In this document: positions 274-64,000 of the stretch, one piece after another
Numbering within the stretch: position 1 is the first letter of the stretch
Layout: each line of letters opens with the position of its first letter
Virus record (IMG/VR): IMGVR_UViG_3300009431_000002
Location: 137,922-201,921 of that record
Strand: one strand, 5' to 3'
Source of the DNA: a virus
Lineage: Duplodnaviria > Caudoviricetes
Length of the DNA stretch: 64,000 nucleotides
Program-made: the position numbers and the translations under genes
The notes under the pieces: generated by a model
Told to the model about the DNA's origin: nothing
What the model saw: only the letters and a program-made list of their open reading frames with translations
The model's database searches: none

Positions 274-2414
274 GCGTGTGACAGCAGCTTCAGCCCGTTG
301 ACCACCGACTCCAGAGAGAAGAGCGCCGTCCGCACCGACGACTCGTTGATGATCTTCTGGCCGATGCGGACGGCCAGCAGGAGGTCCGCGAGACGGTTCA
401 CGGAGTCCTCGAGGTACGGCATGTAGCTGACGAACACCGACATCGTCTCGGGCGACAGGAAGCCCAGCGACAGCACGGCGTCCACGGTGTCGGCGTCGCC
501 GTCGGCGAGGTCACCGGCCTCCTTGACCAGCAGCACGGCCTTGGGCAGGTCCTTGATCCTCTCGGCCGCGGTCTTGACCGCCTCCTCGCGGACCTCGGAC
601 AGCGGGACGATGGGGCGGAGCCCACCGAGCTCAGCGTGTCCGACCTCCACCGACTCCGCCAGCTTCTCCTTGGCCACCCGCGGGTGGACACCGGCGCAGA
701 CCATGAGGAACTCGGCGCCAGCCCGGTCCACGAACTGGTAGTCCTGCTGCGCCAGCTTGTGGAAGGCGCGGCCCTTGAGGCTGTACTCGGGGCCGTGGCA
801 CATCAGCGTGCCCACCTGCGCGACACCGCGGGCCTCGGACTCCTTGTTGAATCCCTCCGGCGCGTCCACCAGCTTGGTCATCTGTCCCTCGAGGGGGCAG
901 AAGCGGTAGTGATCGGGCACCGCGAACAGGCCGTCGCCCAGGAACTGGATCTTCTGGATGTTGGGGGCGAACGAGAACCGGACGAACTCCCCGATGTCCG
1001 TGATGGCCTGGTACGCCTGCATCCCACCCTGCTGCTGGTCCAGCTGCACTTGGAAGGGCACCGTGGCCTTGGCGTTGCCGCCCTCCACGCAGTAGAGGAA
1101 GCCGTGCCCGCGCACGGGCCCGTGCGGGAGGTTGCCGCCCTTGCCGACGCGGATGCCGGCGACGCCGGGCTGCACCGAGAACTCCGAGCCGTTGGTGAAC
1201 AGGCTCATCGGCACCAGGTCCTCGCCCATGCTGGGCTGGAACTGCATCAAGCCGGGGAACACCCAACCGATGAGGTGCCGGCCGTCGCAGGTGGCGACGC
1301 GCCACTCGCCGAACTCGTCGACCAGTCGGATCTCCTCGTCCTCGGAGTCCGGTTCCATCGCCGCGGCGTCGACGATGTCGGACTCGCCCGGGGCCAGATC
1401 GCCAGCGCCCGGCGCGATACCCTCGGCCTCGGCCGCCCCCATCTCCTGCTGTTGGGGAGCGAACGCCTCGGGGTTGGCCCACTTCGCCATCACCGTGCCG
1501 CTGGCGGTCTTGGTGAGCTGGACCACCGTGGGCTTGATGCCCGTGGCAAACTGGCTCCACATGTCGGCCGCGGCCACCTTGTCCAGCGTGCTGGCACCGG
1601 CGATGTACCCCAGCATCTCGGCCGCGGTCTCCGACGACCGGAAGGCGCGGCGCAGGGCGGGGTCGTCGGCGATGGCGGCGGCGACCTTCTCGACCGTGGC
1701 GGCGTCCATCGACGGCGCGAGCGCACGCAGCAAAGGCACGCCAGCCTTCTTCTCGTGCAGCTTCTTCTTGGCCTCGAGGGTGGAGTCCCAGGACTCGCCG
1801 GACGCCTCCTCCAGCTTCTTGAGCTGGTCCTCGTCGAACTTCTTGGCCAGGAAGCTGTCGACCACACCGGCGGCCTTCTCGACCCCCAGCATCTCGGCGA
1901 GCGCCTCCTCATGGGCGGAGCCGGTCACCGTCATGCCGCCGAAGTACCCGCCGTACTGGCCGCCGCCGAAGGGCGGGGCGAGGTCGCTGGCCATGTACTT
2001 CTGCGCCGGCGGCGTGCCGGGGCCGTCGAAGGTCTCGGCGCGGAACATGTGCTGACGGAAGCGAGCCTCCGTCAGCGGCCACGTCTTCTCCCCCTGCATG
2101 AACAGGTCGAACGGCGCCAGCTGGAACTTGTGGATCACGATGGGGATGCGGGAGTGCTTGACCGACTTCCCCAGCAGCTCCTCCCCCGGCGACCTGTCGG
2201 TCTTGTTCTTGACCTCGACGTAGCCGATGGCCGTGCCCTGCTCGGGCACCGAACGGGGGATGTTGACGGAGACGTCGTACTCCGCCAGGAACGGAAGCTG
2301 GCGGTACGCCTCCTGCAGGAGCTGCGTCGGCCAGTGGTCGGCGTTGCTGACCATGCGGGCCGAGGAGACCATCGCGGTCTTGGTCTTGGGGGATTCGTCG
2401 AGGAAGAGGTCCAT
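270..2414 (-). CDS. Probable virion/head-associated protein, 714 aa, K-x-A rich
   Basis: Long GC3-rich ORF downstream of the spike gene in the same operon; 11 K-x-A tripeptides by hand count. Function not recognised. Confidence 0.6.
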   Translation of the reverse strand: MDLFLDESPKTKTAMVSSARMVSNADHWPTQLLQEAYRQLPFLAEYDVSVNIPRSVPEQGTAIGYVEVKNKTDRSPGEELLGKSVKHSRIPIVIHKFQLAPFDLFMQGEKTWPLTEARFRQHMFRAETFDGPGTPPAQKYMASDLAPPFGGGQYGGYFGGMTVTGSAHEEALAEMLGVEKAAGVVDSFLAKKFDEDQLKKLEEASGESWDSTLEAKKKLHEKKAGVPLLRALAPSMDAATVEKVAAAIADDPALRRAFRSSETAAEMLGYIAGASTLDKVAAADMWSQFATGIKPTVVQLTKTASGTVMAKWANPEAFAPQQQEMGAAEAEGIAPGAGDLAPGESDIVDAAAMEPDSEDEEIRLVDEFGEWRVATCDGRHLIGWVFPGLMQFQPSMGEDLVPMSLFTNGSEFSVQPGVAGIRVGKGGNLPHGPVRGHGFLYCVEGGNAKATVPFQVQLDQQQGGMQAYQAITDIGEFVRFSFAPNIQKIQFLGDGLFAVPDHYRFCPLEGQMTKLVDAPEGFNKESEARGVAQVGTLMCHGPEYSLKGRAFHKLAQQDYQFVDRAGAEFLMVCAGVHPRVAKEKLAESVEVGHAELGGLRPIVPLSEVREEAVKTAAERIKDLPKAVLLVKEAGDLADGDADTVDAVLSLGFLSPETMSVFVSYMPYLEDSVNRLADLLLAVRIGQKIINESSVRTALFSLESVVNGLKLLSHA

Positions 2415-2418
2415 TGGT

Positions 2419-3510
2419 TCACCTCAAGTACGTGTTCTGGGCCAGGATGGAGCTGGCCGGAGTCGTCGGGGCCGCGGCTGTCGTACCCGCCACGGAGTGC
2501 GTGTGCGACTGGAGCCAGGAGACGAGCGTGTCTCCCAACACACCCTTCTGCGCGCCCTGCTGACCGCCGACCGTTACCTTCCCGCTGGGCTCCACCACGA
2601 CGGAGCCTCCGCCCATCGTGATGTTGCCGGTGGCCGTGATCTCCACGTCGCCACCGCTGTCTATCTTCACACTGGTTCCACCCTTGAGCATAGCTTCTTG
2701 AGTGGCTTCGACCTTCGCGTTCTCCTGTGCCACGAGCTCGATGTTCTTCTTGGCCGCCACCAAGAAGCTGTCCTCGACCGCCCAGGAGACCTCGCCGTTG
2801 TGCTTCACCGTCAGCTCGGCGTTGAGCGTCGCCTCCTCGGCGCCATCCACGTTCACGCCGAGCCGTAGGGCCACGTCTTCGTCGTCAGGGTCGTGGCCGA
2901 GCAGCAGGGAGCACACGTAGCCTGGGTCCGTGGCCTTCTCCTTGGCCCGCAGCAGCAGCGTCGTGGTCTTGTCTCCGTCCGCGTTCTTCTCCGGCCGGTC
3001 GACCAACCAGGTCAGCTCGCCGCCGAACGTCCGCAACTCGTACTGTGAGCACACGTCGCGGATCATCCGATGGATCGGCAGGTACAGGCGCTGGGCCAGG
3101 GGGCCGGCCATCACCTGCACCACGCCACCGCGTCGGATGGTGATGCCGTTGCCGTCCCTCGTGCTCATGTGGATGTCGCCGGGGTTGAGGTCCTTGCGGG
3201 TGGCGCGCCACCCCTCCTCCCCCGGCGGCGGCGCGTACCCCAGGATGAACGGGTGCTCCCCGTCGCTCGGCCAACAGACCCAGCACATCGCCCCGACCTC
3301 CGGCATGATGTACACGCCTTCGCCGAAGTAGTGGTGCATGTACGGCGACATGAACGGCACGTCCCCGTAGTAGCGCATCGAGTGCTGGGTCACGAAGTCC
3401 ACGGAGTACAACGGCGGGTTCACGTTGATGACCTGGGCGGACTCCACGTACGCCTCGGTGAGCTCACCGAGAGCAATCGGTCGCGGTTCCTGGTGGGTCG
3501 CCCGAGTCAC
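2419..3510 (-). CDS. Baseplate central spike (gpV/gp5-like), 363 aa
   Basis: N-terminal OB-fold-like segment (GVYIMPEVGAMCWVCW..PFILGY), beta-helix-like repeats, C-terminal H-x-H metal-binding tip (LQSHTHSV) as in P2 gpV/phi92 gp138. Confidence 0.72.
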   Translation of the reverse strand: MTRATHQEPRPIALGELTEAYVESAQVINVNPPLYSVDFVTQHSMRYYGDVPFMSPYMHHYFGEGVYIMPEVGAMCWVCWPSDGEHPFILGYAPPPGEEGWRATRKDLNPGDIHMSTRDGNGITIRRGGVVQVMAGPLAQRLYLPIHRMIRDVCSQYELRTFGGELTWLVDRPEKNADGDKTTTLLLRAKEKATDPGYVCSLLLGHDPDDEDVALRLGVNVDGAEEATLNAELTVKHNGEVSWAVEDSFLVAAKKNIELVAQENAKVEATQEAMLKGGTSVKIDSGGDVEITATGNITMGGGSVVVEPSGKVTVGGQQGAQKGVLGDTLVSWLQSHTHSVAGTTAAAPTTPASSILAQNTYLR

Positions 3511-3517
3511 GTCCTAC

Positions 3518-3940
3518 TCAACGACGGAGCAGCGTCGCGCCCCCGAGGCCCAACGTGCCGAGACCAGCCATGCCTCCGGCGCCGGCCAGCGCACCGCCGC
3601 CGACGTCACGGGCGAGGTCGCCGCCCTCCTGGACCTGCTTGCCCCAGCCCTCGAGGCCCTCGCCCCAGCCGCGGCGTGTCTTGCCGGCGTCCAGGGCCTC
3701 CGTGCTCATCTTGCCCTTGGGCTGGGCCTTCACGGCGCGGGCCATGGCGTCGTCGCCCGACTGGGTGAGCTTGCCGCCCAGCCACTTGGCGCCGCGGCCG
3801 ATGAGCTTGCCGGCCTGCTCGATGAGCGCGAGCTTCTCGAGGTCGCTCAGGCCACGGGCGTCTGCCACCTTCTCGAGCTCGTCGAGGAACCCGCCGACGA
3901 AGGCGTGCTCGCATGCGGCCGCGTGCTTCTCCATATCCAT
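3518..3940 (-). CDS. Putative internal virion protein with FLDELEKVA leader, 140 aa
   Basis: SD GAGG; leader motif shared with neighbours; Gly/Ala/Leu-rich hydrophobic C-terminus. Confidence 0.6.
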   Translation of the reverse strand: MDMEKHAAACEHAFVGGFLDELEKVADARGLSDLEKLALIEQAGKLIGRGAKWLGGKLTQSGDDAMARAVKAQPKGKMSTEALDAGKTRRGWGEGLEGWGKQVQEGGDLARDVGGGALAGAGGMAGLGTLGLGGATLLRR

Positions 3941-3949
3941 GCGGTCCTC

Positions 3950-4735
3950 CTATCCAAAGTGGCGCGGCGTTGGCGCGTCGAGCCACAGATATTTGCTTTC
4001 GTGCGCTGACAGCCGAGGCTTGAGCCACCGCATGGCTTCCTGAGGCCCGCGGCTCTGCAACTGCTCCCGGTACGCGTCCTGTATCTGACTGTACTCTAAA
4101 TCTCGTCGGTCGACCGACCGCTCCAGCAACGCCCGAAACCGACGTCGCATAGCCTTCGGCATCTTCTGCCCAGGACGGCCAACGAACCCACCTGCGCGGG
4201 CGTCCCCGAACGCCTCGGACGCCTGCCTGGACAGACGCCTGTACTCCGGTTCGCGCAGCCTACGCCACAATCCAGCCGTCTCCCAGCCACCGCCCGGGCC
4301 CTCTAAGGTGTTAATGAGATTGGACTCCTGGACCAGCACATCTGGCTCTGCGTGACCAGAGACCAGTTCCGTGAGCTTCTCGCCGTAACGGCCAGCTTTC
4401 CGCTCCGCAGCCTCGTGTATGGTGGCGATCCCACGAAGGTTGGTTTGTGCCTCCCTGGAGGCGTGTGGGGCAATACCGCGACCCGCGGATGGCGCCACGT
4501 AGACGGCACCTGCAGCCCGAGCCAGGGCCGGGGACTGATCCTTTATGGCCTCCGGCAAACGCTTCGGTATGTGGAACGCGCCAGCGCGCATCGGTGTGGT
4601 GCCGAGCTCCTCCCAGGCTTTCGCTGGTAGCCTACGCAGTGGGGCGATGCGCTCGGTAGCCACGCGAAGATCTGCAGCTGACACCGCGATCTTCACAAGC
4701 TCGTCGCAAAACGCCGCCAGTCGCCTCCGCTCCAT
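3950..4735 (-). CDS. Putative internal virion protein with FCDELVKIA leader, 261 aa
   Basis: SD AGGAG; leader motif; basic mature part with HEAAE...H..E motif; codon usage atypical for the genome. Confidence 0.6.
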   Translation of the reverse strand: MERRRLAAFCDELVKIAVSAADLRVATERIAPLRRLPAKAWEELGTTPMRAGAFHIPKRLPEAIKDQSPALARAAGAVYVAPSAGRGIAPHASREAQTNLRGIATIHEAAERKAGRYGEKLTELVSGHAEPDVLVQESNLINTLEGPGGGWETAGLWRRLREPEYRRLSRQASEAFGDARAGGFVGRPGQKMPKAMRRRFRALLERSVDRRDLEYSQIQDAYREQLQSRGPQEAMRWLKPRLSAHESKYLWLDAPTPRHFG

Positions 4736-4743
4736 GCGATCTC

Positions 4744-7700
4744 CTAGTACCCGACGCGGAACTCCGTGGTGCCGGGTGTTCCTTTCTCAGGCTGCCCGAA
4801 CTCGGAGCCATAGGCTAGCGCCGGGATCGGATGCAACCCGTGGATGTTGCTGGACCAGCCCCTCAAGGCACCGTCGACGATGGTGTCCTTCAGCTTCTGG
4901 TACTGGAGCCGCGCCATCCAGTCCTCCTGCATGTCCAGCGGCGTCTGCGTGACCCCGCGCAGGATGGGCGTGAACTTGACGGGCTTCTTGCGCTTCTTGT
5001 TGTGGTACCCGACATTCGACGTGGACACCAGGTCTCCTGGGAGGAGGTCGGTGTCGCCGGCGTCATCCACTACGCCGAGGTCGGTGATGGCGCGGACCGC
5101 GGTCTCCACGTTGCGCCGGAGCACTGGGCCCGCGTCCGAGTACGCCTTGTGGACCTCGTCCGCGAGGTAGCCGCGCACCGTGTTGATGTTGGTCAGCGGC
5201 AGCATCTCGTGCGGATTGATGGGCCCGCCGGAGAGCCGGTCCCCCTTGCGGACCTTCACGCCCTTGCGCAGCTTGATCTTCTCGTTGACCAGGTGCTCGG
5301 GGACGTAGTGCCTCTTCCCCTTGACCCAGATGTTGAGGCCGCCGACCTCGGCGTCCTTCTCCACCCGCTCTACGGTGCCCGTGGTCGTCGCCAGCGTCGC
5401 CGAGTCCGCCAGCACCTTGGGCATGCGCAGCAGGTCCTGGACCCTGGTGAACTTGTCGGTGGACCGGCCGCTCTTCGAGGCAGCGACCCCGCCTTCGTGG
5501 AACGCGCGCATCGACAACTGCGTGGCGGGCTCGCCCAGTGCCTGCGACGCGATGACCCCGATGTTGGTCCCCGGGTCGGGCAGCTGGCCGTCCGGCAGGT
5601 TGCCGTAGTCCCGTGCGTACAGTCCCTTCGGGGCCACCGACTTCAGCGGGCTGCGGATCGACACGCGCCGGACGCCGCTGTTCTTCATCCTCGTCTGGAC
5701 CCGGTCGGTGACCTCGGTGTTCCTCGGCAGGACGTCGCCGCCCCGGAGCTTCACGGGCCGCGCGAGGTAGCGACCGATGACCTCGCGGTCCTCGGGGTCC
5801 GCGCTGATGCCGTCGTCGGCGTCGTCCGGCGCGTCCCCATCGACCACGACGAGGTTCATGGCAGAGTTCACGACGTCCTTGGTCAGCGCGCCGGGCTTGG
5901 CGGTCTCCTTCGTCTTCTGGATCATGCCCTTGCGCGCACCGTGCATGGCCGTGAAGTAGCTGGCGGAGTCCAGGCCCTCGGCGTAGCTCTTGGTGATCGG
6001 CACCGGCACGATGCGGTCGGCCGCGTCCTTCACCAACATGGGGGCGATGAGGATCTGCCGGACCTGGTCCCAGTTGCCGCGAGCACCGGCGTTGACCATC
6101 TCCAGGGCGTGGTTGCCCTGCCGCTCCAACTTCGGACGGATGGCCCGGCTCAGGTCCTCGGTGGCCTTGGAGTAGAGGTCGACGAGGCGCTGGTCCTTCT
6201 CCTCCTGGGTCAGCGACTTCATCTTCTGGATGCGCTTGGCCGCCTTGTGGACCCCAGCCAGGGCGCGGTCGCGCACAGCCTGCTGCGCCTGGAAGTCGTC
6301 GAGGGTGAACGACGCGCCAGACTCGTAGGCGTAGTCGTTGCCCATGTCCTTGAGGTCGTTGACGACGTCGCCGAAGTCGGCCGAGTGCTCCTTGGCCATC
6401 CGGGTGAGGAGGTCCTTGGTCGGGCCCTTGGACATCCGGAAGTCCTTGGAGTGGAGCAGCTGCGCGTCCCCTCGCATCCCCTCCGGCAGCACGCGGTCGA
6501 GGAGGATGCGACCGAGGGTCGTCTCCCTGCCCTTCACCGAGACCACGTCGGTCATGCCGAGGCCGAGCTTGCGGGCCTTGGCCGCCACCTGCGCCGGCGA
6601 GTCGAAGCGGTGCGACGTCTTCTTCCCCCACTCTGTCAGCCGGTACAGCCCGAGCTGGGCCTCGTGGCCCGGGGAGTACATCACCCGGCCGGTGGTGGTG
6701 TTGAACAGGTTGTTGGACGGGAAGAGCTTGCGCGCCTCCTCCACCGCCTCCTTGGCGAGCGGAACGTAGGCGGACATCTGGTCGCCGTCGAAGTCGGCGT
6801 TGTACCCCGAGGTCACCAGGGGGTGGATGCGGATGGCCTTGCCGCCGACGAGCTTGGGCTTGAACGCCATGACCCCGAACTTGTGGAGCACCGGGTCACG
6901 CTTCAGCAGCACCGGCCGCTCCTCCATCACGCGCTCAAGCGCGTGCCGGGCGACCTTGGAGTTGGTCCGGACCAGGTGCTGTGCCTCGGCGGGGACGTAG
7001 CCCTGCTCCCGCACCAGCTTTCGCACGACGAAGGGCTTGTACGTCTCCTTCGCCAGCTTGTAGGGGATGCCCACCTCGTCCAGTCCCATGTCGGGCTCGG
7101 GGATGATGGTGGACCGCATCGACAGGTCCTGCCGGCGGGAGACGAGGTTCTTCTGGAAGAACGAGTCCTTGGGCTGGGGCACGCCCTTCATCGTCTCCAT
7201 CACGCCGCGGTGCTTGCGGCCGTTGATGGTGGAGCCGGTCATCATCAGGGCGCGGAGCCCGTCGTAGAGCTCGGCGGTCAGCTTGCTCTTCGTCTTCTCC
7301 CCGAGTCCGGGGTCGTAGTCCCGCAGCTGGATGTTGGTGATGCCGAGGCTCTTGTACAGGCCGTTGATGTCCGAGTCGTTGAGCTTGCCCGACTCCATCA
7401 CCGAGACCGGCCGCATCACCGGCGGCATGACGGGCACGACCGAGGTGAAGTACGCCTGGTCGGGGGTCAGGTCGTTGGCGACCAGCGCCTCGAGGAACCG
7501 GATCTGCTTGCGCAGCTTCGCCATCGTCGACACGGCCTTGGTGGTCTCGGCCTGGCGACGGAGCGTCTCCAGCTGCTGCCGTGGGTCGATGGCCGCCAGC
7601 CGTGCGCGGATGGCTTCGGGCCCGGTCTTCCCGTCGAGCGTCTTCTCGCCGGCGATGACGGCCTGGTAGTCCTTGTTCTTCAGCCCCGTGAAGGTGAGGA

Positions 7701-10700
7701 TGGCCTTCTCGAACACCGGGTTCGGCATGGGCTCGGCCAGCCGGATGTGGGACCAGCGCTTGCCGTCCACACCGCCCGTGGCGTAGGGGTCGAACAGCCC
7801 GCCGCGCTCCGGCTTGAGGTCCTTGCCCCGGAACATCAGGCCCGGGTCCTTCAGTTCGCCGCTGGACATCCGCAGGATCTGCTCGTCGGTGAGGGGCGCG
7901 AGGTTCAGGGTCGAGCCCTGCTTCTTGACGTCGACGCCCAGCACGTTGAGGTAGCCGTTGAACTTGTCGAAGGCGAACGAGGTGGACGGCGGTGGGAGCT
8001 GCTCCCCAGTCTGCAGGGCCATCCACAGCTCGGGGTTCTTCTGGCTCTTGTAGGTGGCCATCTCCCGGATGTTGGCCTTCGCTCCATGAGCCAACATGGC
8101 GTACATGCCCAACGCGTCCATGGCCTGGGCGCCGTGGGCACCACCGCCCTTCGGAACCTCGTTGACGCTGTACGCGTACCCGGCCCCGCCCGCGCGGGCG
8201 TGGGACTTCTTGTCGATCTGGTGCTTGAGCTTGAGGATGTACTGGTCGCCCGTGAGGATCGGCCCCAGGCTCTGCCCGGACTTGGGGTCCACCAGCTCCT
8301 CGGTGTCGGACAGGCCCTCCTTCGCCAGCTCCGCCTTCATCTCCTTGGCGTAGTTGCGGTTGGCCCCGCCGAAGTTGTTGGTGACGTACCGCTTGCCCCG
8401 CTTCCGGGCGATCTTCCCGGCCATCGTCTCGAGGACCTGGCCGAGGTTGATGCGGCCGGGGATGCCAGCCGGGTTGAGCAGGACCTCGACCGGGGCGCCC
8501 TCTTCGCCAGAGGCGCGCGGCATCTCGTGGTCAGGCAGCACCGCCGTGACGATGCCCTTGTTGCCGTGGCGTCCGACCAGCTTGTCCCCGACGCGGGCAG
8601 GCTCCTCGGTGGCGACGTGGACGCTGACGTCCTTGCCCCGCTTGACGACGCGGACCACCCGGCCCTTCGTGTCCTTGTCCCAGACGATGGGCTTGGGGTC
8701 CATGTCCCGCACGAGGCTCTTGTGCAGCCGCGCCCGCATGCGACGCTCGCTGGTCTGCTCCGGCTTCTTCAGCGCGGCGACGAGGATGTCCCCCTCGTTG
8801 ACCTCCTGCCCCACCTGGATGACGCCGTCGTCGTCGAGCTTGTCGTAGACCTCGCGCTGCACGCGGTCGGGTGGCGCGTACGCGCGGAACTTCTTCTTGT
8901 CCAGGACCGTGTTCTTGGTCAGCCGCATGCTCTTGCGGTGCATGTGCTGGGACTTGAGCTTCTCGGCCGCGGACTCGGAGACGACGATGCCGTCCTCGAA
9001 GTTGTACCCACGGTACGGGATGTAGGCCACCCGGAGGTTCTTGCCCAGCGCGAGCTTGCCTTCGCGCGTGAAGTTGGTGTCGGCCACCGTCTGGCCGCGC
9101 TTGACCTTGTCCCCCTTCTTCACGAGGGGCTCGGAGTGCAGGACGCTGGACGCCTCGTTGAGCGGGAAGTGGTCGTAGAGCTGGACCTCCTCCAGCTTCC
9201 CGGCCTTGCTCCGGATCTTGATGGCGCCGGGCCTCACCGACACCACGGTGCCTTCCACCGGGGACTCGTGGGAGTTGAACTGGCCCAGCACGTCCTCGAA
9301 GGTGGACCTCACCTCGGTCTTGGACTGCACCAGCGGCTCGTCGCGGTCCACCAGGGGCACGGCCTGCTCCTGCTGCCGGGACGCCGTCATGGCCCTGTTG
9401 CCCTGGTTGTTCTGCAGGAAGGGCACGAGGTTGGTGGCCATGCTGAACAGGCCCTTGGCCGACGGGAGGATGTAGTCCACCTCGCTGGCCGGCACCTGCA
9501 TCACCTCGCCGCCCGGGCCGCTGACCGTCACCTCCTTACCGATGGGGACGAGCCGGTTCTTCACCTTCTTGTACTGGTCTGGGAAGGCGACGGTGGAGCG
9601 GTGCGCCTTGTGCGGATCGATCTTCTCCCGGCGGCCCGTCTTCGTGTTGTAGGCCTGGATGTAGAGGGTCTTGCCCTTCCGCGACACCCCCAGCGGGAGC
9701 TGGAGGGTGATGCCGGTGCGGTCACCCTCCGGGGTGTGGATGGGGTCGAGGAAGCCGAGGTGCGTCGGGTCGATGAGCTGGTCGGCGTCGGTCAGGGTGT
9801 GGGTGCTCTTGACCCCGCCCTCGCCCATGATGGTGGTCTTGGACTGGCCGGAGATGAACTCCAGCGGGTTGACCTGGTCGGGCATCTGCGACAGCTGGGT
9901 CTGGGTGAAGAAGGTCTTGATGGGCTTGTCGAACAGCCCGGGGGTCACGACCTCCCTGACGTCGGCCTTGCGGTCGATGTTGTTCTCCATCTTCCGCTGC
10001 AGATCCCAACGGCCGCGGGTCAGCCGCTCGGCCACGAAGTCGTCGACCGACAACGCGTCCTTGTAGAACAGGTGCTCACGCGCGTCCGGGGTGTCCTCGC
10101 CCCTCGAGATCCGCGCGAGCTTGTGGGCCGAGGCCAGGAGCGACGGGCCGCTCACCTTGTCGTAGGCCTTGCCCAGGGTGATCTTCGTGCTGTCGGGGCG
10201 CAGCACGGTCGTGCCGAACTCATCTCGGAGGTGGCGCTCGGCGTCCTCGATGCTGGGTGCCTGCTTGCCCGTCGACGCCTTGTAGAAGGCGCGCATGGCG
10301 ACGTCGTGCTTCTCCTTCTTCCCCTGGTTGAGGATCCCGCGGCCCAGCTCGCGCTCGATGGTGTCGTCGTCGACCCCCAGCACCTTGAGCATCGGGTAGA
10401 GCGGGATGTGGGAGTTGCCGTACCGGACCAGGAACCGCCGGTCCTCCGGGTGGAACCGGAGCCGGAAGTTCTTGCCTTTCGCCATGTTCCACTGGGACTC
10501 CAGCTCACCCTTGGCGCTGACGCGGTGGTACACCCCAGCCTTCAACCGGAACTGGTTGTCGACCTGGTACTCCTTGCCGTCGACGATGTAGGAGTGCCGC
10601 TTGGTCACGCGGGGCAGGTTGCCCACGCGCATGGACTTGCGGCTGATGACCTTGCCCGTCTCCTTGTTGACCAGGGAGACGTCGGCCATAACAGGGTCAG

Positions 10701-10890
10701 CCCAAGTCCTGCCCTTGAGCTTCGCGTCCTGCTGGGACCGGATGTCGTCGATGCCCTTCTTGTCGTCGACCCAGACCCGGTGGAGCTCCAGCCGGTTCTC
10801 TCGCCCCTCGAAGGGGAACATCGACGAGATGGCGTCGCTGACACGGTCTTTGAGGGCACCGTAGGAACCCTCTGGGTTCAGTGTCGCCAT
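4744..10890 (-). CDS. rpoBC: DNA-directed RNA polymerase, fused beta-beta' single polypeptide, 2048 aa
   Basis: Beta motifs QLSQ..DQ.NPL, TPEG, GYNFED, GDKLVGRHGNKG (8554-8589); beta' catalytic NADFDGD (6781-6801), bridge helix RKGMIQKTKETAKPG, trigger loop GEPATQLSMRAFH; junction VLGVDVKK-QG-STLNLAP near 7915-7926 with no stop. Confidence 0.97.
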   Translation of the reverse strand: MATLNPEGSYGALKDRVSDAISSMFPFEGRENRLELHRVWVDDKKGIDDIRSQQDAKLKGRTWADPVMADVSLVNKETGKVISRKSMRVGNLPRVTKRHSYIVDGKEYQVDNQFRLKAGVYHRVSAKGELESQWNMAKGKNFRLRFHPEDRRFLVRYGNSHIPLYPMLKVLGVDDDTIERELGRGILNQGKKEKHDVAMRAFYKASTGKQAPSIEDAERHLRDEFGTTVLRPDSTKITLGKAYDKVSGPSLLASAHKLARISRGEDTPDAREHLFYKDALSVDDFVAERLTRGRWDLQRKMENNIDRKADVREVVTPGLFDKPIKTFFTQTQLSQMPDQVNPLEFISGQSKTTIMGEGGVKSTHTLTDADQLIDPTHLGFLDPIHTPEGDRTGITLQLPLGVSRKGKTLYIQAYNTKTGRREKIDPHKAHRSTVAFPDQYKKVKNRLVPIGKEVTVSGPGGEVMQVPASEVDYILPSAKGLFSMATNLVPFLQNNQGNRAMTASRQQEQAVPLVDRDEPLVQSKTEVRSTFEDVLGQFNSHESPVEGTVVSVRPGAIKIRSKAGKLEEVQLYDHFPLNEASSVLHSEPLVKKGDKVKRGQTVADTNFTREGKLALGKNLRVAYIPYRGYNFEDGIVVSESAAEKLKSQHMHRKSMRLTKNTVLDKKKFRAYAPPDRVQREVYDKLDDDGVIQVGQEVNEGDILVAALKKPEQTSERRMRARLHKSLVRDMDPKPIVWDKDTKGRVVRVVKRGKDVSVHVATEEPARVGDKLVGRHGNKGIVTAVLPDHEMPRASGEEGAPVEVLLNPAGIPGRINLGQVLETMAGKIARKRGKRYVTNNFGGANRNYAKEMKAELAKEGLSDTEELVDPKSGQSLGPILTGDQYILKLKHQIDKKSHARAGGAGYAYSVNEVPKGGGAHGAQAMDALGMYAMLAHGAKANIREMATYKSQKNPELWMALQTGEQLPPPSTSFAFDKFNGYLNVLGVDVKKQGSTLNLAPLTDEQILRMSSGELKDPGLMFRGKDLKPERGGLFDPYATGGVDGKRWSHIRLAEPMPNPVFEKAILTFTGLKNKDYQAVIAGEKTLDGKTGPEAIRARLAAIDPRQQLETLRRQAETTKAVSTMAKLRKQIRFLEALVANDLTPDQAYFTSVVPVMPPVMRPVSVMESGKLNDSDINGLYKSLGITNIQLRDYDPGLGEKTKSKLTAELYDGLRALMMTGSTINGRKHRGVMETMKGVPQPKDSFFQKNLVSRRQDLSMRSTIIPEPDMGLDEVGIPYKLAKETYKPFVVRKLVREQGYVPAEAQHLVRTNSKVARHALERVMEERPVLLKRDPVLHKFGVMAFKPKLVGGKAIRIHPLVTSGYNADFDGDQMSAYVPLAKEAVEEARKLFPSNNLFNTTTGRVMYSPGHEAQLGLYRLTEWGKKTSHRFDSPAQVAAKARKLGLGMTDVVSVKGRETTLGRILLDRVLPEGMRGDAQLLHSKDFRMSKGPTKDLLTRMAKEHSADFGDVVNDLKDMGNDYAYESGASFTLDDFQAQQAVRDRALAGVHKAAKRIQKMKSLTQEEKDQRLVDLYSKATEDLSRAIRPKLERQGNHALEMVNAGARGNWDQVRQILIAPMLVKDAADRIVPVPITKSYAEGLDSASYFTAMHGARKGMIQKTKETAKPGALTKDVVNSAMNLVVVDGDAPDDADDGISADPEDREVIGRYLARPVKLRGGDVLPRNTEVTDRVQTRMKNSGVRRVSIRSPLKSVAPKGLYARDYGNLPDGQLPDPGTNIGVIASQALGEPATQLSMRAFHEGGVAASKSGRSTDKFTRVQDLLRMPKVLADSATLATTTGTVERVEKDAEVGGLNIWVKGKRHYVPEHLVNEKIKLRKGVKVRKGDRLSGGPINPHEMLPLTNINTVRGYLADEVHKAYSDAGPVLRRNVETAVRAITDLGVVDDAGDTDLLPGDLVSTSNVGYHNKKRKKPVKFTPILRGVTQTPLDMQEDWMARLQYQKLKDTIVDGALRGWSSNIHGLHPIPALAYGSEFGQPEKGTPGTTEFRVGY

Positions 10891-10911
10891 GGAACGTCCA
10901 GTTGTGCCATC

Positions 10912-10940
10912 AGGCTACAGTGCAAGGGATGCTGTGGCAA
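10912..10940 (-). promoter_or_regulatory. sigma70-type promoter TTGCCA-N17-TAGCCT for the RNAP/virion operon
   Basis: -35 at 10935-10940 (5/6 match), -10 at 10912-10917 with T-12, A-11, T-7 kept, 17-nt spacer, 21 nt before the rpoBC ATG. Confidence 0.6.
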
Positions 10941-10950
10941 CGGGTACAAG
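10919..10950 (+). promoter_or_regulatory. Putative phage-sigma promoter AGTGCAA-N17-GGTACAAG
   Basis: Same bipartite motif as 17269-17299; lies 29 nt upstream of the first gene of a plus-strand operon. Confidence 0.6.
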
Positions 10951-10979
10951 TAGAGTAACCAACAGAGGAGGTCTGCTGC

Positions 10980-11186
10980 ATGATTGAAATCGTACCCACC
11001 GAAGACCACACCCTCGACGATCTGGACGACGAGCCCATCGTGCTCGCCGGCCCGGGCGATGACGAGGATGACAACGATGACGAAGAGGAGGACAATGAGG
11101 AGGAGGTCGACGAGGACCGGGAGGACCGGACGAGTCCAGAGATCCTCGACGACGCCGTCGATGAGGCGATCTACGGCGAGGAGTAG
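10980..11186 (+). CDS. Small highly acidic protein, 68 aa
   Basis: SD GGAGG 8 nt upstream; Asp/Glu-rich; first gene after the putative phage promoter. Confidence 0.7.
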   Translation: MIEIVPTEDHTLDDLDDEPIVLAGPGDDEDDNDDEEEDNEEEVDEDREDRTSPEILDDAVDEAIYGEE

Positions 11187-11188
11187 CC

Positions 11189-11290
11189 ATGTTCTGGACG
11201 CTGGTGGGCGTCGGCCTGTTCCTGGGGCTGATGCTGTACATGAGACATTCGAGCGGGGACTTCGTGGCCTCGATGACCCGCTCGACCTGA
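11189..11290 (+). CDS. 33-aa single-pass membrane peptide (MFWTLVGVGLFLGLMLYMR...)
   Basis: Hand translation; SD GAGGAG; GC3-rich codons; hydrophobic N-terminal 17 residues. Confidence 0.55.
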   Translation: MFWTLVGVGLFLGLMLYMRHSSGDFVASMTRST

Positions 11291-11709
11291 CCGCCGACGA
11301 CGCGGCGCCCGACGCTACGTTCGCACTGGCGTACTGCACCCTGCTCGCCCACGACATCATCGCTGAGGCGTTGGACGGGGACCCCGAGGACTGGCCCGAC
11401 TACATCCAGCTGTGCTGCGACGAAGTGAACTGCGCCGAGTGCGCGCTCCTCGCCGGCTTCCTGGAGGGTTCCGAGTTCTCGTGGGTCTGCGCCACCTGCG
11501 CCACCGCCTTCCCACACCACATCGGCTTCTGGATCTCGGGGACCTGCGACGCCTGCGACGGCGTCGTCACAACAGGTACACGCCGCTCCCCCGTCGTCAC
11601 GACCGACGACGACCACGCCGAGTCCTGCGTCCTTCAACTGATCGAGGAGCAGCCGGTCCTCCGCGACCGGCTCCGCCGGATGCAAGCACTGGTGGAGCGG
11701 CATGCGTAG
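11287..11709 (+). CDS. Cys-rich hypothetical protein (start uncertain)
   Basis: Coding-like part of track ORF 10984-11709; CCDEVNCAEC, CATC, CDAC motifs; no ATG/GTG where the coding signal begins, only a CTG overlapping the upstream TGA. Confidence 0.55.
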   Translation: MTADDAAPDATFALAYCTLLAHDIIAEALDGDPEDWPDYIQLCCDEVNCAECALLAGFLEGSEFSWVCATCATAFPHHIGFWISGTCDACDGVVTTGTRRSPVVTTDDDHAESCVLQLIEEQPVLRDRLRRMQALVERHA

Positions 11710-12007
11710 GGCGCTACGATTCAGCGACCTCACGCGCCGCGCCAAGGAGGACCGAGAGGAGGCCCTCCGCCAGGACGACGCCGGCGAACCACGAGTCATC
11801 TGCGACTACTGCGACCAGCCAATCGTGCCCGGAGAGGTCGGCTTCGCCATCCAGCAATTCGAGGTGGTGGTGAGCAACAAGTCCGGGCGCGACGTCTACC
11901 AGGACATCCACATGGAGGACGGGTCCTCCGAGAAGTGCTACCACTTCACGTGTCTCGCCGAGCACATCACCCAGCCGTGCATCATCGGAGCCGAGCATGA
12001 AATGTGA
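11702..12007 (+). CDS. Zn-finger protein (C-x2-C...H-x2-C), 101 aa
   Basis: CDYCD...YHFTCL; paralog of next gene. Confidence 0.7.
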   Translation: MRRALRFSDLTRRAKEDREEALRQDDAGEPRVICDYCDQPIVPGEVGFAIQQFEVVVSNKSGRDVYQDIHMEDGSSEKCYHFTCLAEHITQPCIIGAEHEM

Positions 12008-12266
12008 CTGGTGCGACTGCGAGTTCGAGCCCGATGAGGAGGCCATGCTGGTCATCGAGGGGCAGATGACCCTCTCCCCCAAGTCCGAGCGCCTGGTGCT
12101 GGGCAAGGAGATGACCCCCAAGTACTTCCACAAGGCCTGCCTCTACGAGGTGGCCATGCACGCGATGGAGCTCGACGACGAGTACCTCGCCCAGGTCGGC
12201 GCCAACGTGCGCGAGATGCTGGAGGAGGAACTGCGCGAGAAGATCTACGACGAGCTGACTGCCTGA
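11997..12266 (+). CDS. Zn-finger protein (C-x2-C...H-x2-C), 89 aa
   Basis: CDWCD...FHKACL; paralog of previous gene; last gene before terminator. Confidence 0.7.
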   Translation: MKCDWCDCEFEPDEEAMLVIEGQMTLSPKSERLVLGKEMTPKYFHKACLYEVAMHAMELDDEYLAQVGANVREMLEEELREKIYDELTA

Positions 12267-12281
12267 CGACACAGTGTCGTC
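12265..12281. repeat. Dispersed palindrome copy 1 (GACGACAC-A-GTGTCGTC)
   Basis: Perfect 8-bp arms with 1-nt centre; core CGACACWGTGTCG at 12267-12279. Confidence 0.85.
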
Positions 12282-12287
12282 GACGCC

Positions 12288-12311
12288 GAGTGGGGGCCGC
12301 CCCACTCTTTT
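12288..12311 (+). terminator. Intrinsic terminator GAGTGGGG-GCCG-CCCCACTC-TTTT
   Basis: 8-bp perfect stem, 4-nt loop, T-tract, at a convergent junction. Confidence 0.8.
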
Positions 12312-12320
12312 AGATCGGGA

Positions 12321-14318
12321 TCAGACGACCGCCCGCTCGAGGGGCCGGCGCGGGGGCTTCTGCTCGGGGAGGGGCTGCTGAAGCGGATTCAGCGTGTCTC
12401 GCTGGCCTCCATCGCCCTCGCTCAGCAGGGCCTGGACCATGCGGTAGATGTCGGGGCTGCCCATCCGCAGCTTCTGCATGGCCTGCGGGAACATGGCCGG
12501 CTGCTCGTCCTGGATCCGGCGCATCTCCGTGGCGATGCGTCGCGCGACGAAGCGGACGTCGACCATCTCGTTGCCGCCGGTCATCTGCCCCATGTGCATG
12601 GGGGACTGGACCTCCTGCGGGAGGTTGTCGACGTACACGGCCGCGCCGTCCGGCACACCCGGACCGATCTGCTCGCCGCGCATGACCGATGGCTGGGTCT
12701 GCGGCAGCTCGGCGTAGGACGGCGGGGACTCCGGCGGCTGCTGCATCTGCATCTGCATGTGCTGGGCCTGGATCTCGTAGCGGAGGGCCGCCAGCTGGGC
12801 CTCCCCCTGCGCCGCGGCCTGGGCCACCACCATCTCGCGGTTGGCTGCCACCTGCTTGACCAGCTCCTGCTTCTTCCGCTTCTCCTCGGTCTCCAAGTCC
12901 TCGCCGAGCTCGCGGAGGAACGTGGTGTCGGAGATCTTCATGGCCTGGTTCGCCTGGAAGTAGACCATCAGCCTCTGCAGGTCGTCGGCCATCTTGAACC
13001 GCTCGAACCGGATGGGCACCCTCGGCCAGCCGAGGAACTCGCAGATGCGGCCCATGACGAAGTCGCCAACCAGCCGGAGTTGGTCGTCGCGGTACCCACT
13101 GAACTGGTTCTCGAGGATGCGCATCGACACGTTGGTGCCGGTGTACTGCATGCCACCGAAGATGAACTCGATGGGCACGTTCATGCCCGCGATGATCTGC
13201 TCGCTCCAGACCCGCAGCTCCTGGTGGAGGATGAGCGCCCGTCCCTGGCCGCCGATCATCTCGTGGCCGAGTGGGATGGGCATCAGCGGGATGTAGTTGG
13301 GGTCCTGGCGCCAGCGAGCGATCTCCTCCTGGACCTGGTCCTTCCACTCCCCGAGGTTGATCATCGTGATGGGGTCGCCGGTCTGCCCGTTGGCCTGCGG
13401 GTACAGCACGCGCAGCGGGACGATGTGCTCCTGGGCGATCATCTCCTGGCCCTTGCGCAGGACCTGCAGGTAGAAGATGTCCTTGAGCACGGGCAGGACC
13501 AGCGGCATGCCCCAGCCCTGGTCCTTCTGGGCGATGATGGGCCGCTTGAGGTGGAACAGCGTGCCCGGCGCGAACTTCACCGACTTCTTCTTCCGCATCG
13601 CCTCGATGAAGGTGTCGGGCACCGTCTCGATGACGTTGCGGCGGCCGATGGTGATGGCGTTCTTCAGCTTCTGCGGCAGCTTGTAGAAGTAGGTCGGGTC
13701 GGTGACGCCCTCGTTGTCGTCGATCTCCACCCGCTCCGGGTCCCACCGGACCAGCCGGATGCCCTTGGCCGTCCGCATGGCCTCGTCGTGGACCTCGGCC
13801 GGCCGGCGCTCCCCGCACTCGGGGCAGGTCAGGTAGTAGACCATCTCCTGGTAGCGGTAGTGCCTGCGGAGCTTGTCGATGGGCGCCTTGTGGCCGCAGT
13901 GACGGCACTTGAGGTGCTTGACGAAGGGGAAGTGCACCGTGACGAAGGCGTTGCCGTAGTTGTAGTAGTCCAGCCCCACCTCGATCTGGAACTTGCGGAC
14001 CTGGAGCTGGTCCTCGAAGAGGTGGCGGTACCGCTCTCGGACGTCCTTGTCGTCGGCCTCGTAGATGATCTTGGTGATGGGGTACTCGGCCAGCTTGTAC
14101 ACGACCGCGTTGATGAGCGGGTTCGTGAAGAAGAAGTACCGGCACCACTGCAGCATCTGCTTGAGGCGCGCGGGGAAGTACGTCTGGGCGGCGTCGAAGA
14201 ACGGGTTGGGGTACCGCACCCCGGTCCGCTGCATGCTCGAGCCGAGCGTGACGGGCGTGCGGGAGAAGCGGGTCAGCCCGTCACCGTAGGAGACGCCGGT
14301 GTACCCGAGGCCTGGCAT
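12321..14318 (-). CDS. Probable portal protein with Zn-ribbon insert, 665 aa
   Basis: Size, helical character and motifs reminiscent of portals (NPLINAVVYKLAEY, DYYNYGNAF, WGMPLVLPVL, IIAGMNVP); CRHC...CPEC insert; Gln/Pro-rich tail. Assignment is inference. Confidence 0.6.
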   Translation of the reverse strand: MPGLGYTGVSYGDGLTRFSRTPVTLGSSMQRTGVRYPNPFFDAAQTYFPARLKQMLQWCRYFFFTNPLINAVVYKLAEYPITKIIYEADDKDVRERYRHLFEDQLQVRKFQIEVGLDYYNYGNAFVTVHFPFVKHLKCRHCGHKAPIDKLRRHYRYQEMVYYLTCPECGERRPAEVHDEAMRTAKGIRLVRWDPERVEIDDNEGVTDPTYFYKLPQKLKNAITIGRRNVIETVPDTFIEAMRKKKSVKFAPGTLFHLKRPIIAQKDQGWGMPLVLPVLKDIFYLQVLRKGQEMIAQEHIVPLRVLYPQANGQTGDPITMINLGEWKDQVQEEIARWRQDPNYIPLMPIPLGHEMIGGQGRALILHQELRVWSEQIIAGMNVPIEFIFGGMQYTGTNVSMRILENQFSGYRDDQLRLVGDFVMGRICEFLGWPRVPIRFERFKMADDLQRLMVYFQANQAMKISDTTFLRELGEDLETEEKRKKQELVKQVAANREMVVAQAAAQGEAQLAALRYEIQAQHMQMQMQQPPESPPSYAELPQTQPSVMRGEQIGPGVPDGAAVYVDNLPQEVQSPMHMGQMTGGNEMVDVRFVARRIATEMRRIQDEQPAMFPQAMQKLRMGSPDIYRMVQALLSEGDGGQRDTLNPLQQPLPEQKPPRRPLERAVV

Positions 14319-17207: not shown

Positions 17208-17239
17208 GGAGACTCCTGTGAATGAGGCGGTCCAGTGGA

Positions 17240-17299: not shown

Positions 17300-17304
17300 A
17301 AAAG

Positions 17305-17318: not shown

Positions 17319-17346
17319 AAACCCTGCTCCGAGGAGGATGCCTATC

Positions 17347-63063: not shown

Positions 63064-63294
63064 TCATCTACCGAGTAGCAGGTTGACCTCCTGGATCAGG
63101 AAGGGTTCGGCGCTGCTGATAGTAGCAAGGCTGAGGTCCGCTGATCCACTGATTCCCTCCCGCACCTCCTTGAGGTAGGCCACGTCGTCATCGATCCGTG
63201 CGATCTCCTTGTCGTAGTAGTCCGTCCACGCCTGCTCCAGCGCGTCCAGTGCTTCGTCTCGGGTCATCGGCTCTGTCACCAGCCCGGGTCCCAC
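63064..63294 (-). CDS. Small acidic hypothetical protein, 76 aa
   Basis: Overlaps sigma stop by 19 nt; GC3-rich. Confidence 0.6.
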   Translation of the reverse strand: MGPGLVTEPMTRDEALDALEQAWTDYYDKEIARIDDDVAYLKEVREGISGSADLSLATISSAEPFLIQEVNLLLGR

Positions 63295-64000
63295 CGCTGT
63301 GCCTTCGCCGCGATCCGCTTGCGGATGCGCGAGACCTTGGAGTCCGACCAGCCCATCTTCTTGGCGATCCGCGTCGCGGACGTCGCCTGCTTGCCACCGG
63401 TGCCGAGCAGGTGCTCGTAGACCGTCAGCTCGTCAGGGGTGAGCTCGAAACGCAGGAACTCCAGCATCTCCTGGTCCTTGCTCGGGATGATGGAGGTGGG
63501 GTCGTCCTTGAACCCGGAGGATGGGAGGTCCTTGTGGGACAGCTCCGCCTGCATGCGGCCGACCTCATCCTGGTTCCACCCCAAGCGGTCCGCCAGTTCC
63601 GACGACGTCGGCTCCCTGCCGAGCTGCTGGTCGAGCTCGAACTGGGTGGTCTTGAACTTGCCGATGTCGTAGCTGCGCGTCTCCGGGATGCGACCGACGT
63701 TCTGGTACTTGTTCACGAACCTCTGCGCCGACCGCATGTAGTGGTGGACGAAGGTGGACAGCTTCGTGCCGCGGTTGGGGTCGTACCGGCGCAGGGCGCG
63801 CAGGAACTGCTGGTTGAACTCGGCCTCGACGGCCGCCGGCGGCAGCGGCGTGCGCTGCTGGAACATGCGGACCCGCTTGCCGATCAACGACTGCATGGAG
63901 TCGAGGAGGGGCTGGAACTTCGTCGGGTCCTCGCCGGAGTTCTTCCAGTCCCAGTACATCTCCATCTCCTCACGCTGCTTCTGCGTGAGGGGCTTCTTGG
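63276..64000 (-). CDS. RNA polymerase sigma factor, group 3 (FliA/WhiG/SigF-like); frame open to window edge
   Basis: Region 2 RALRRYDPNRGTKLSTF, region 3 ELDQQLGREPTSSELADRLGW, region 4 HTH IAKKMGWSDSKVSRIRKR; upstream of ATG 63965 the frame stays open (KKPLTQKQREE). Confidence 0.88.
   Translation of the reverse strand, partial: KKPLTQKQREEMEMYWDWKNSGEDPTKFQPLLDSMQSLIGKRVRMFQQRTPLPPAAVEAEFNQQFLRALRRYDPNRGTKLSTFVHHYMRSAQRFVNKYQNVGRIPETRSYDIGKFKTTQFELDQQLGREPTSSELADRLGWNQDEVGRMQAELSHKDLPSSGFKDDPTSIIPSKDQEMLEFLRFELTPDELTVYEHLLGTGGKQATSATRIAKKMGWSDSKVSRIRKRIAAKAQRWDPGW

What the first reader, a model, noticed from the sequence alone, without database searches (positions are those of the whole stretch)
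4744..10890. Fused beta-beta' RNA polymerase with no cysteine and no zinc sites, encoded in a virion operon: likely packaged and injected
Seen: no Cys in 2048 aa by manual scan. The beta' N-terminal zinc-binding domain is deleted (GLFDPYATGGVDGKRWSHIRL, 7741-7800). The second Zn site ligands are replaced (DGDA for EDDC; RSPLKSVAPKGLYARDYG for RS...C.....C..CYG, 5602-5656). Non-ligand conserved Cys are also gone (HPLVT, LDPIH). The gene is SD-coupled to leader-bearing genes and the spike gene, while plus-strand proteins are Cys-rich. Established: N4 virion RNAP lacks Cys, and N4 and crAss-like phi14:2 inject RNAP for early transcription. Inference: a virion-delivered, minimal cellular-type RNAP with an almost zero-length beta-beta' linker; no alpha or omega gene seen in the window. 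The fusion itself may already be reported for mReC phages.
Basis: partly seen in the sequence, partly recalled or inferred. Interest (0 to 1): 0.88.

Follow-up and report, generated by a model that had tools for sequence, protein, structure and literature searches.

The report
Cysteine-free, zinc-free single-chain phage RNA polymerase
A 202-kb uncultured phage encodes both large subunits of a bacterial-type RNA polymerase as one 2048-residue protein with no cysteine and neither of the usual zinc sites; its gene sits between the portal and terminase genes, and a cultured relative's particles contain the enzyme, so it is probably carried in the virion to start phage transcription.

Summary
Window 4744-10890 (-) encodes one 2048-aa beta-beta' fusion with 0 Cys, where about 22 are expected (P = 1.3e-10). 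The beta' zinc-binding domain (ZBD) is deleted. The four ligands of the second zinc site (Zn2) read A/S/Y/D. The linker is about 5 residues and the catalytic motifs are intact.

The fusion and the ZBD deletion are family-wide, in hundreds of ~2050-aa homologs on 170-200 kb phage contigs. The zinc-free state is not: 250 of 270 relatives keep the four Zn2 cysteines, and 100 of 133 intein-free members have exactly those 4 Cys. Only this small clade and a few independent lineages lost them.

Virion packaging is not shown here but has support:
- The order portal -> RNAP -> gp5-like spike -> ... -> terminase is conserved.
- In cultured Salmonella phage Arash, the published virion proteome ranks the RNAP first, with the orthologous sigma factor and helicase also present.
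- Injected N4 vRNAP has 0 Cys in 3500 aa.
- In phiKZ, the virion RNAP has half the Cys of the non-virion paralog and no ZBD-type Cys cluster.

The main rival is a T7-like early enzyme made from the sigma70-like promoter upstream.

This scan already found the fused family on other genomes. New here is the fully Cys-free, zinc-free variant. The mReC paper does not report the fusion.

The parts
4744..10890 (-). Single-chain beta-beta' RNA polymerase, 2048 aa, 0 Cys (P0001)
7924..10890 (-). beta module (residues 1-989), with fork/Rpb2_3, Rpb2_6 and GRHGNKG (window 8554-8574)
7909..7923 (-). About 5-residue junction between the end of beta (aligns to RpoB 1338 of 1342) and beta' (aligns from RpoC residue 20)
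4747..7908 (-). beta' module (residues 995-2048), with NADFDGDQM at window 6775-6801
7738..7800 (-). Site of the deleted N-terminal zinc-binding domain of beta' (about 30 residues missing, no Cys)
5608..5832 (-). Former second zinc site: ligand positions A1687 (5830-5832), S1751 (5638-5640), Y1758 (5617-5619), D1761 (5608-5610)
10891..10983 (.). 93-bp divergent intergenic region. It holds TTGCCA-N17-TAGCCT (about 10912-10940, minus strand) 22 nt before the RNAP start, and AGTGCAA-N17-GGTACAAG for the plus-strand gene
3950..4735 (-). 261-aa protein, start 8 nt after the RNAP stop, N-terminal AAFCDELVKIA tag
3518..3940 (-). 140-aa protein with N-terminal GGFLDELEKVA tag, conserved in the 67% relative
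2419..3510 (-). gp5/Phage_base_V-like central spike protein, 363 aa
270..2414 (-). 714-aa conserved protein of the same block, function unknown
12321..14318 (-). Portal protein (ortholog of Arash gp204), upstream on the same strand
63276..63965 (-). Sigma70-family factor, 229 aa, 0 Cys, ortholog of virion-detected Arash gp10

Best explanation
The gene encodes an active bacterial-type RNA polymerase core in which beta and beta' are one chain. The fusion probably replaces the assembly role of alpha and omega, which the phage does not encode.

The whole family has deleted the beta' zinc ribbon and purged every cysteine except the four ligands of the second zinc site. This clade has replaced those too (A/S/Y/D), giving an enzyme with no thiol and no structural zinc.

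The gene belongs to a conserved head/virion block: portal, RNAP, spike, and further on terminase. Most likely the enzyme is made late, packed into the capsid together with the phage sigma factor and the Snf2 helicase, and ejected with the DNA to start phage transcription independently of new protein synthesis. The same single enzyme then serves throughout infection. Lack of Cys and zinc would suit a protein that must survive outside cells and pass through the tail partly unfolded.

Shown here: the sequence features, their family distribution and the synteny. Taken from a published relative: presence in virions. Inferred: packaging in this phage, ejection, sigma use, and the reason for the Cys loss.
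For: - Fusion, motifs and zinc-site losses.
- Closest solved structures are bacterial beta' subunits (E 5e-113).
- The family is large and conserved: 891 hits, with ~2050-aa proteins on 170-200 kb contigs, and 3384 representatives at E <= 1e-30 for the beta' half, which include other RNAPs.
- 100 of 133 intein-free members have exactly 4 Cys, all at Zn2.
- The A/S/Y/D residues are identical in all members of this clade at 67% identity, drawn from several samples, so the state is stable.
- The block g155-g154-g153-portal -> RNAP -> g147 -> spike -> g145 -> g144 ... TerL is conserved in four relatives at 39-67% identity. Portal -> RNAP is also conserved in Arash and Vibrio phage D69.
- Arash virions were sucrose-gradient purified. 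RNAP gp206 has the most spectra (3516). gp216 has 1210, helicase gp217 1148, sigma gp10 467 and the major capsid protein 1333 (PMC10585845).
- Orthology of these Arash proteins to P0001, g141 and g187.
- Cys depletion tracks packaged proteins elsewhere. N4 vRNAP has 0 Cys in 3500 aa against 1.1-1.4% in N4 replication enzymes. phiKZ vRNAP has 0.60% against 1.17% in nvRNAP.
- phiKZ nvRNAP gp55 keeps the CxC-x12-CxxC ribbon pattern. None of the five vRNAP subunits does.
- In this genome the two most Cys-depleted proteins are the RNAP and the Snf2 helicase.
- The plus-strand promoter motif GGyAyAAGG (about 20 intergenic copies) is absent before the RNAP and sigma genes, so these fall in a different transcription class from the replication and tRNA operons.
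Against: - There are no virion data for this phage or for any fully fused member.
- Arash shares only 24-33% identity. Its proteome lists 116 proteins, including ribonucleotide reductases, and its authors allow carry-over of abundant proteins.
- A sigma70-like TTGCCA-N17-TAGCCT lies 22 nt before the RNAP start. It is one of nine intergenic, minus-strand sites of this type. The gene could therefore be read early by host RNAP.
- The RNAP lacks the F-x-D-E-L-x-K tag carried by neighbouring proteins.
- 93% of relatives keep a zinc site, so zinc loss is not required by the proposed lifestyle.
- The portal itself carries Cys, so virion proteins are not uniformly Cys-free.
Confidence: 0.55

Rival explanations
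1. Non-virion, T7-like scheme. Host RNAP reads the sigma70-like promoter upstream and makes the phage RNAP early. The phage RNAP, with the phage sigma, then transcribes the GGyAyAAGG operons and the late genes. It is not packaged. The Cys and zinc loss reflects some other pressure, such as oxidative or thiol-directed stress, or drift in a fast-evolving lineage.
For: TTGCCA-N17-TAGCCT lies 22 nt before the start. Nine of eleven such sites are intergenic and on the minus strand. The RNAP heads its transcription unit. The Arash authors themselves allow contamination by abundant proteins. The RNAP has no capsid-tag motif.
Against: The same unit continues without a gap or terminator into tagged proteins and a tail spike, which are unlikely early genes. 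The position between portal and terminase is conserved across the family. The genome-wide count of such promoter matches equals the shuffled expectation (11 against 11.6). Extreme family-wide Cys depletion matches packaged polymerases.
Confidence: 0.3
2. Packaged, but the Cys and zinc loss has nothing to do with packaging. It is neutral erosion of a dispensable structural site in a chain already stabilised by the fusion.
For: Zn2 was lost several times independently with different replacements: ASYD, ASSA, VDAD, NAPA, DCAS. Most packaged-type relatives keep it.
Against: Non-ligand Cys are absent in nearly all of about 130 members. That points to purifying selection against Cys, not drift. The replacement residues are fixed within the clade.
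Confidence: 0.12
3. Inactive relic or purely structural capsid protein.
For: Loss of sites thought important for beta' folding.
Against: All catalytic motifs are intact. It is the only multisubunit RNAP in the genome. Conservation is strong over 2048 aa, with 67% identity to relatives from other samples.
Confidence: 0.03

Closest known systems
RNAP of Salmonella phage Arash (gp206 + gp216) and of Vibrio phages D69/D148/D181
   Same: Same beta-to-beta' fusion junction, ZBD absent, almost no Cys outside Zn2 (gp206 has 1 Cys in 1525 aa), portal immediately upstream, orthologous helicase and sigma. The enzyme was detected in Arash virions.
   Different: Only 24-33% identity. Their beta' is split again near residue 1440 by inserted genes. 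They keep the 4-Cys Zn2 site (gp216 C232/C284/C291/C294). The Arash paper annotates the two pieces simply as beta and beta' subunits; I did not check whether it comments on the fusion or the Cys content.
Uncultured fused beta-beta' family (~2050 aa; P0005, P0006 and others)
   Same: Same architecture, length and synteny, at 39-50% identity.
   Different: 250 of 270 keep CCCC at Zn2. This clade has ASYD and 0 Cys.
phiKZ/AR9 virion multisubunit RNAPs
   Same: Cellular-type two-barrel enzyme without alpha or omega. Encoded among head genes, packaged and injected (PMC7598289, PMC13282480). Lower Cys than the non-virion paralog, and no ZBD-type Cys cluster.
   Different: Those are split into 4-5 polypeptides, are too divergent to appear among the tblastn matches, have no sigma70-type factor, keep a Zn2-like cluster, and are paired with a second non-virion RNAP. 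Here there is one chain and one enzyme.
Coliphage N4 virion RNAP gp50
   Same: Giant injected polymerase with 0 Cys.
   Different: Single-subunit T7-like fold, unrelated in sequence and structure.
crAss-like phi14:2 gp66 and the P23-45 tape-measure-fused RNAP
   Same: Single-chain two-barrel RNAPs carried in virions (PMC7481178 introduction; bioRxiv 10.1101/2022.12.01.518664, from its abstract).
   Different: Those lack recognisable beta/beta' sequence homology. This one matches bacterial beta' at E 5e-113.
mReC phages (Weinheimer and Aylward 2020)
   Same: Tailed phages with bacterial-like beta/beta' genes.
   Different: mReC entries list separate beta and beta' proteins, Gp23-type capsid (PF07068) and PF03237 terminase. 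Here the chain is fused, the capsid candidate has no PF07068 hit, and the terminase is GpA-type.
Natural rpoB-rpoC fusions of Helicobacter/Wolinella (own knowledge, not tested here)
   Same: beta C-terminus tethered to the beta' N-terminus in one chain.
   Different: Cellular enzymes with alpha and omega. To my knowledge they keep both zinc sites and a normal Cys content.

Membership tests
Bacterial-type multisubunit RNAP core (beta + beta') | beta double-psi barrel with the GxKxxxRHGNKG lysines; Rpb2 domains | tested here: met
   Rpb2_6 at 7e-64; GRHGNKG at residues 773-779
Bacterial-type multisubunit RNAP core (beta + beta') | beta' catalytic NADFDGD loop; Rpb1 domains | tested here: met
   NADFDGDQM at residues 1364-1372; Rpb1_2 and Rpb1_5; PDB beta' at E 5e-113
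Bacterial-type multisubunit RNAP core (beta + beta') | N-terminal beta' zinc ribbon (C70, C72, C85, C88) | tested here: not met
   About 30 residues deleted, no Cys
Bacterial-type multisubunit RNAP core (beta + beta') | Second beta' zinc site (C814, C888, C895, C898) | tested here: not met
   A/S/Y/D at the aligned columns
Bacterial-type multisubunit RNAP core (beta + beta') | Partner alpha dimer and omega subunits | tested here: not met
   No PF01000, PF01193 or PF01192 match in the complete record. Use of the host subunits cannot be excluded
Arash-like fused phage RNAP family | beta-beta' junction in one ORF, ZBD deleted, gene next to the portal | tested here: met
Arash-like fused phage RNAP family | Exactly four Cys, forming Zn2 | tested here: not met
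   0 Cys here; CCCC in 250 of 270 relatives
Virion (injected) RNA polymerases, functional class | Protein present in purified virions and delivered to the cell | not testable with these tools
   Only the Arash proteome of a 24-33% identical relative is available
Virion (injected) RNA polymerases, functional class | Gene embedded in and co-transcribed with structural genes | tested here: met
   Portal upstream, spike downstream, 8-nt gap to the next gene, synteny conserved
Virion (injected) RNA polymerases, functional class | Early promoters read by the packaged enzyme | tested here: inconclusive
   Two promoter classes separate by strand. Which enzyme and sigma read which class is unknown
mReC phages | Separate beta and beta' genes; PF07068 capsid; PF03237 terminase | tested here: not met

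The most novel reading that the evidence does not exclude
A complete transcription starter kit is packed in the capsid and threaded through the tail: a single-chain, cysteine-free, zinc-free bacterial-type RNAP, its own sigma70-type factor and a Snf2 helicase. This would be the first cellular-type RNAP that needs no zinc, no alpha and no omega. It would also show that purging thiols and metal sites is a general adaptation of proteins that phages inject.
Probability: 0.4. Interest if true: 0.8.

Novelty: new variant of a known kind. Interest (0 to 1): 0.6.

Why it matters
The Zn2 site of the largest RNAP subunit is regarded as a conserved structural element needed for folding and assembly. This is my own knowledge and was not tested here. 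A natural, conserved, evidently functional enzyme without it, and without any cysteine, offers three things:
- a test of what that site is for;
- a compact one-gene bacterial-type RNAP for biochemistry;
- with N4 and phiKZ, a sequence signature (Cys purge, ZBD loss) that may predict which phage enzymes are packaged and injected.

It also marks a very common but unstudied group of about 200-kb phages that may transcribe independently of host RNAP, using a sigma-dependent enzyme of their own.

Tried and rejected
- Megablast of window 1-20000 against the phage records found nothing.
- PHROGs and Pfam on about 30 neighbouring proteins were mostly blank.
- mReC membership was rejected.
- A second RNAP and alpha/omega subunits were searched for and not found.
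- The F-x-D-E-L-x-K tag was examined as a capsid-targeting signal. It is present on nine minus-strand proteins and conserved in the 67% relative. It is absent from the RNAP and undetectable in more distant relatives, so it says nothing about the RNAP.
- CTGTAGCCTGA is shared upstream of the RNAP and g003 only. Two copies are too few to call a promoter.
- The sigma70-like promoter scan gave 11 sites against 11.6 in shuffles, so it is not enriched overall. Only the intergenic, minus-strand bias is notable. The tool's own scan of window 1-18000 did not list the RNAP site.
- The temporal class of the RNAP gene could not be settled from sequence.
- Literature searches for a described beta-beta' fusion in these phages found none.
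- Not run: structure prediction of the Zn2 region, because no coordinates are returned and the alignment is dominated by Cys-bearing homologs.
- Not run: a sigma-RNAP complex prediction, because it is a textbook pair and would not separate the rivals.
Full report
**What is there.** The window is the last 64 kb of a 201,921-bp IMG/VR virus record (CheckV 100%, 67% GC). ORF 4744-10890 on the minus strand gives a 2048-aa protein, P0001, with no stop and no cysteine. The equally long ORF on the opposite strand is a shadow frame typical of GC3-rich DNA. Pfam places RNAP beta domains (Rpb2_3, Rpb2_6) in the first half and beta' domains (Rpb1_1, _2, _4, _5) in the second half.

BLAST against Salmonella RpoB and RpoC aligns residues 221-989 to beta 410-1338 of 1342, and residues 995-2019 to beta' 20-1347. 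The two modules are therefore joined by about five residues. GRHGNKG, NADFDGDQM and the bridge-helix region are present. The closest solved structures by sequence are bacterial beta' subunits (E 5e-113).

**Zinc sites and cysteine.** The zinc ribbon of beta' (C70, C72, C85, C88 in Salmonella) is deleted, with about 30 residues missing at residues 1031-1051. The four ligands of the second site (C814, C888, C895, C898) align with A1687, S1751, Y1758 and D1761. Conserved non-ligand cysteines are also replaced (HPLVT, LDPIH).

The genome averages 1.1% Cys, with 1.77% on plus-strand genes and 0.73% on minus-strand genes. Zero Cys in 2048 residues has P = 1.3e-10, or 1.2e-7 at the minus-strand rate. 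The RNAP is the most Cys-depleted protein of the genome, and a 947-aa Snf2 helicase with 0 Cys is second.

**Family context.** A word-indexed search found 891 homologs. The best 120 are ~2050-aa fused proteins, or longer intein-bearing versions, on contigs of up to 200 kb. A full scan of 1.8 billion representatives with the beta' half returned 150 top hits of the same fused type.

- Among 133 intein-free members of 1950-2150 aa, 100 have exactly four cysteines and 5 have none.
- The four cysteines are the Zn2 ligands. 250 of 270 proteins read CCCC at those columns.
- This protein and its nearest relatives (67% identity, from different samples) read ASYD.
- Other lineages lost the site independently with other residues: ASSA, VDAD, NAPA, DCAS and the related HSYD.
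- On a FastTree of 136 members, the Cys-free state needs four changes.

Three conclusions follow. The fusion, the ZBD deletion and the purge of non-ligand Cys are family traits. Complete zinc loss is a rare, recurrent, derived state.

**Genomic setting.** Upstream on the same strand, past three small Cys-rich plus-strand genes, lies the portal (window 12321-14318; E 4e-84 to the Arash portal). Downstream genes follow without gaps:
- a 261-aa protein whose start is 8 nt after the RNAP stop;
- a 140-aa protein;
- a gp5/Phage_base_V-like spike;
- a 714-aa protein.

Beyond the window edge come an InPase-domain protein, the Snf2 helicase, the GpA-type large terminase, a protease-like protein and the capsid candidate.

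The order g155-g154-g153-portal -> RNAP -> g147 -> spike -> g145 -> g144 ... terminase recurs in four relatives at 39-67% RNAP identity. The genome has a single multisubunit RNAP and no alpha or omega homolog. It does encode a sigma70-family factor (window 63276-63965; Sigma70_r3 at 39.8 bits), which sits inside a long structural operon once the contig ends are joined.

**Evidence on packaging.** The only cultured relatives found are Salmonella phage Arash and Vibrio phages D69, D148 and D181. In these phages the same fused beta+beta'N chain follows the portal, and the C-terminal part of beta' is split off by inserted genes.

The Arash paper (PMC10585845) analysed sucrose-gradient-purified particles by LC-MS. 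RNAP gp206 had the most spectra of all proteins (3516). gp216 had 1210, the adjacent helicase gp217 had 1148, sigma gp10 had 467 and the major capsid protein had 1333. The authors suggest either a role in early transcription or carry-over of abundant proteins. gp217 and gp10 are the orthologs of the Snf2 helicase and the sigma factor here.

I tested the Cys argument on known cases:
- N4 vRNAP has 0 Cys in 3500 aa and two other N4 virion proteins have 0, against 1.1-1.4% in N4 replication enzymes.
- phiKZ virion RNAP subunits have 0.60% Cys against 1.17% in the non-virion paralogs.
- phiKZ non-virion gp55 keeps the CxC-x12-CxxC ribbon pattern, and none of the five virion subunits does. Both sets keep a Zn2-like cluster.

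The family described here shows the virion-type pattern.

**Promoters.** A motif GGyAyAAGG lies about 30 nt before start codons, in some copies with an upstream ATTAGC or AGTGCAA. About 20 intergenic copies exist, all on the plus strand, before replication, nucleotide-metabolism and tRNA operons. None precedes a minus-strand gene.

Nine of eleven TTGACA-like-N16-18-TAnnnT matches are intergenic and on the minus strand. One of them (TTGCCA-N17-TAGCCT) lies 22 nt before the RNAP start. The total number of matches equals the shuffled expectation.

The RNAP and sigma genes therefore belong to a different transcription class from the plus-strand operons. Sequence alone cannot tell whether that class is late, which fits packaging, or host-read and early, which fits a T7-like scheme.

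**Verdict.** The best reading is a functional, sigma-dependent, single-chain RNAP that is probably packaged and ejected (about 0.55). The main rival is an early, non-packaged enzyme (about 0.3).

The fusion is not mentioned for mReC phages in the mReC paper, whose supplement lists separate subunits, and I found no other paper describing it. Earlier reports of this scan on other genomes had already found the fused family, with Arash as its closest relative. What is specific to this locus is the fully cysteine-free, zinc-free state.

Noticed in passing
whole genome; in the window at about 10943-10951 and 17292-17300 (+): A promoter-like motif GGyAyAAGG lies about 30 nt upstream of start codons, in some copies with ATTAGC or AGTGCAA 13-17 nt further upstream. 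About 20 intergenic copies exist, all on the plus strand, heading non-structural and tRNA operons. It resembles group-3 sigma -10 elements.
   Followed up: partly
genome 13836, 15080, 23026, 26719, 44675, 57903, 98790; window 10912 and 17240 (-): TTGACA-like-N17-TAnnnT sites are confined to minus-strand intergenic regions. Several lie only 7-12 nt from the start codon (g010, g044, g062), which suggests leaderless mRNAs.
   Followed up: partly
window 4711, 3889, 15218 (-); genome 1379, 1723, 109692, 110390, 119998, 132892: A peptide (A/G)-F-x-D-E-L-x-K-(I/V/Q)-(A/G) lies near the N-terminus of eight otherwise unrelated minus-strand proteins, and internally in the Snf2 helicase. It is conserved at orthologous genes in the 67% relative L016. 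It may be a capsid-targeting or protease signal.
   Followed up: partly
contig ends (genome 1 and 201921; window 63966-64000): Joining the contig ends closes ORF g001 (313 aa) 5 nt before the sigma gene start. The record is therefore probably a complete, circularly permuted genome, and the sigma factor lies inside a long structural operon.
   Followed up: yes
just before the window (genome 132230-136052): A 947-aa Snf2 helicase with 0 Cys (ortholog of virion-detected Arash gp217) sits next to a 325-aa protein with an InPase domain (PF18823). The PHROG families matching that domain include minor head, DNA-pilot and DarB-like antirestriction proteins.
   Followed up: partly
homologs P0017-P0121, P0132-P0182: Many family members carry one to several inteins or homing-endonuclease inserts (2300-4739 aa) in the RNAP gene. 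The cultured relatives instead have beta' split near residue 1440 by inserted genes.
   Followed up: no
window 10984-12266 (+): Three small plus-strand genes with 4.5-5% Cys are wedged between the portal and the RNAP. They are conserved in position in the 67% relative, and the equivalent slot in other relatives also holds small opposite-strand genes.
   Followed up: partly
L009 and L005 (Arash gp204, D69 0259): The portal proteins of the cultured relatives carry a CxxC-x25-CxxC cluster, a possible zinc site in a portal.
   Followed up: no
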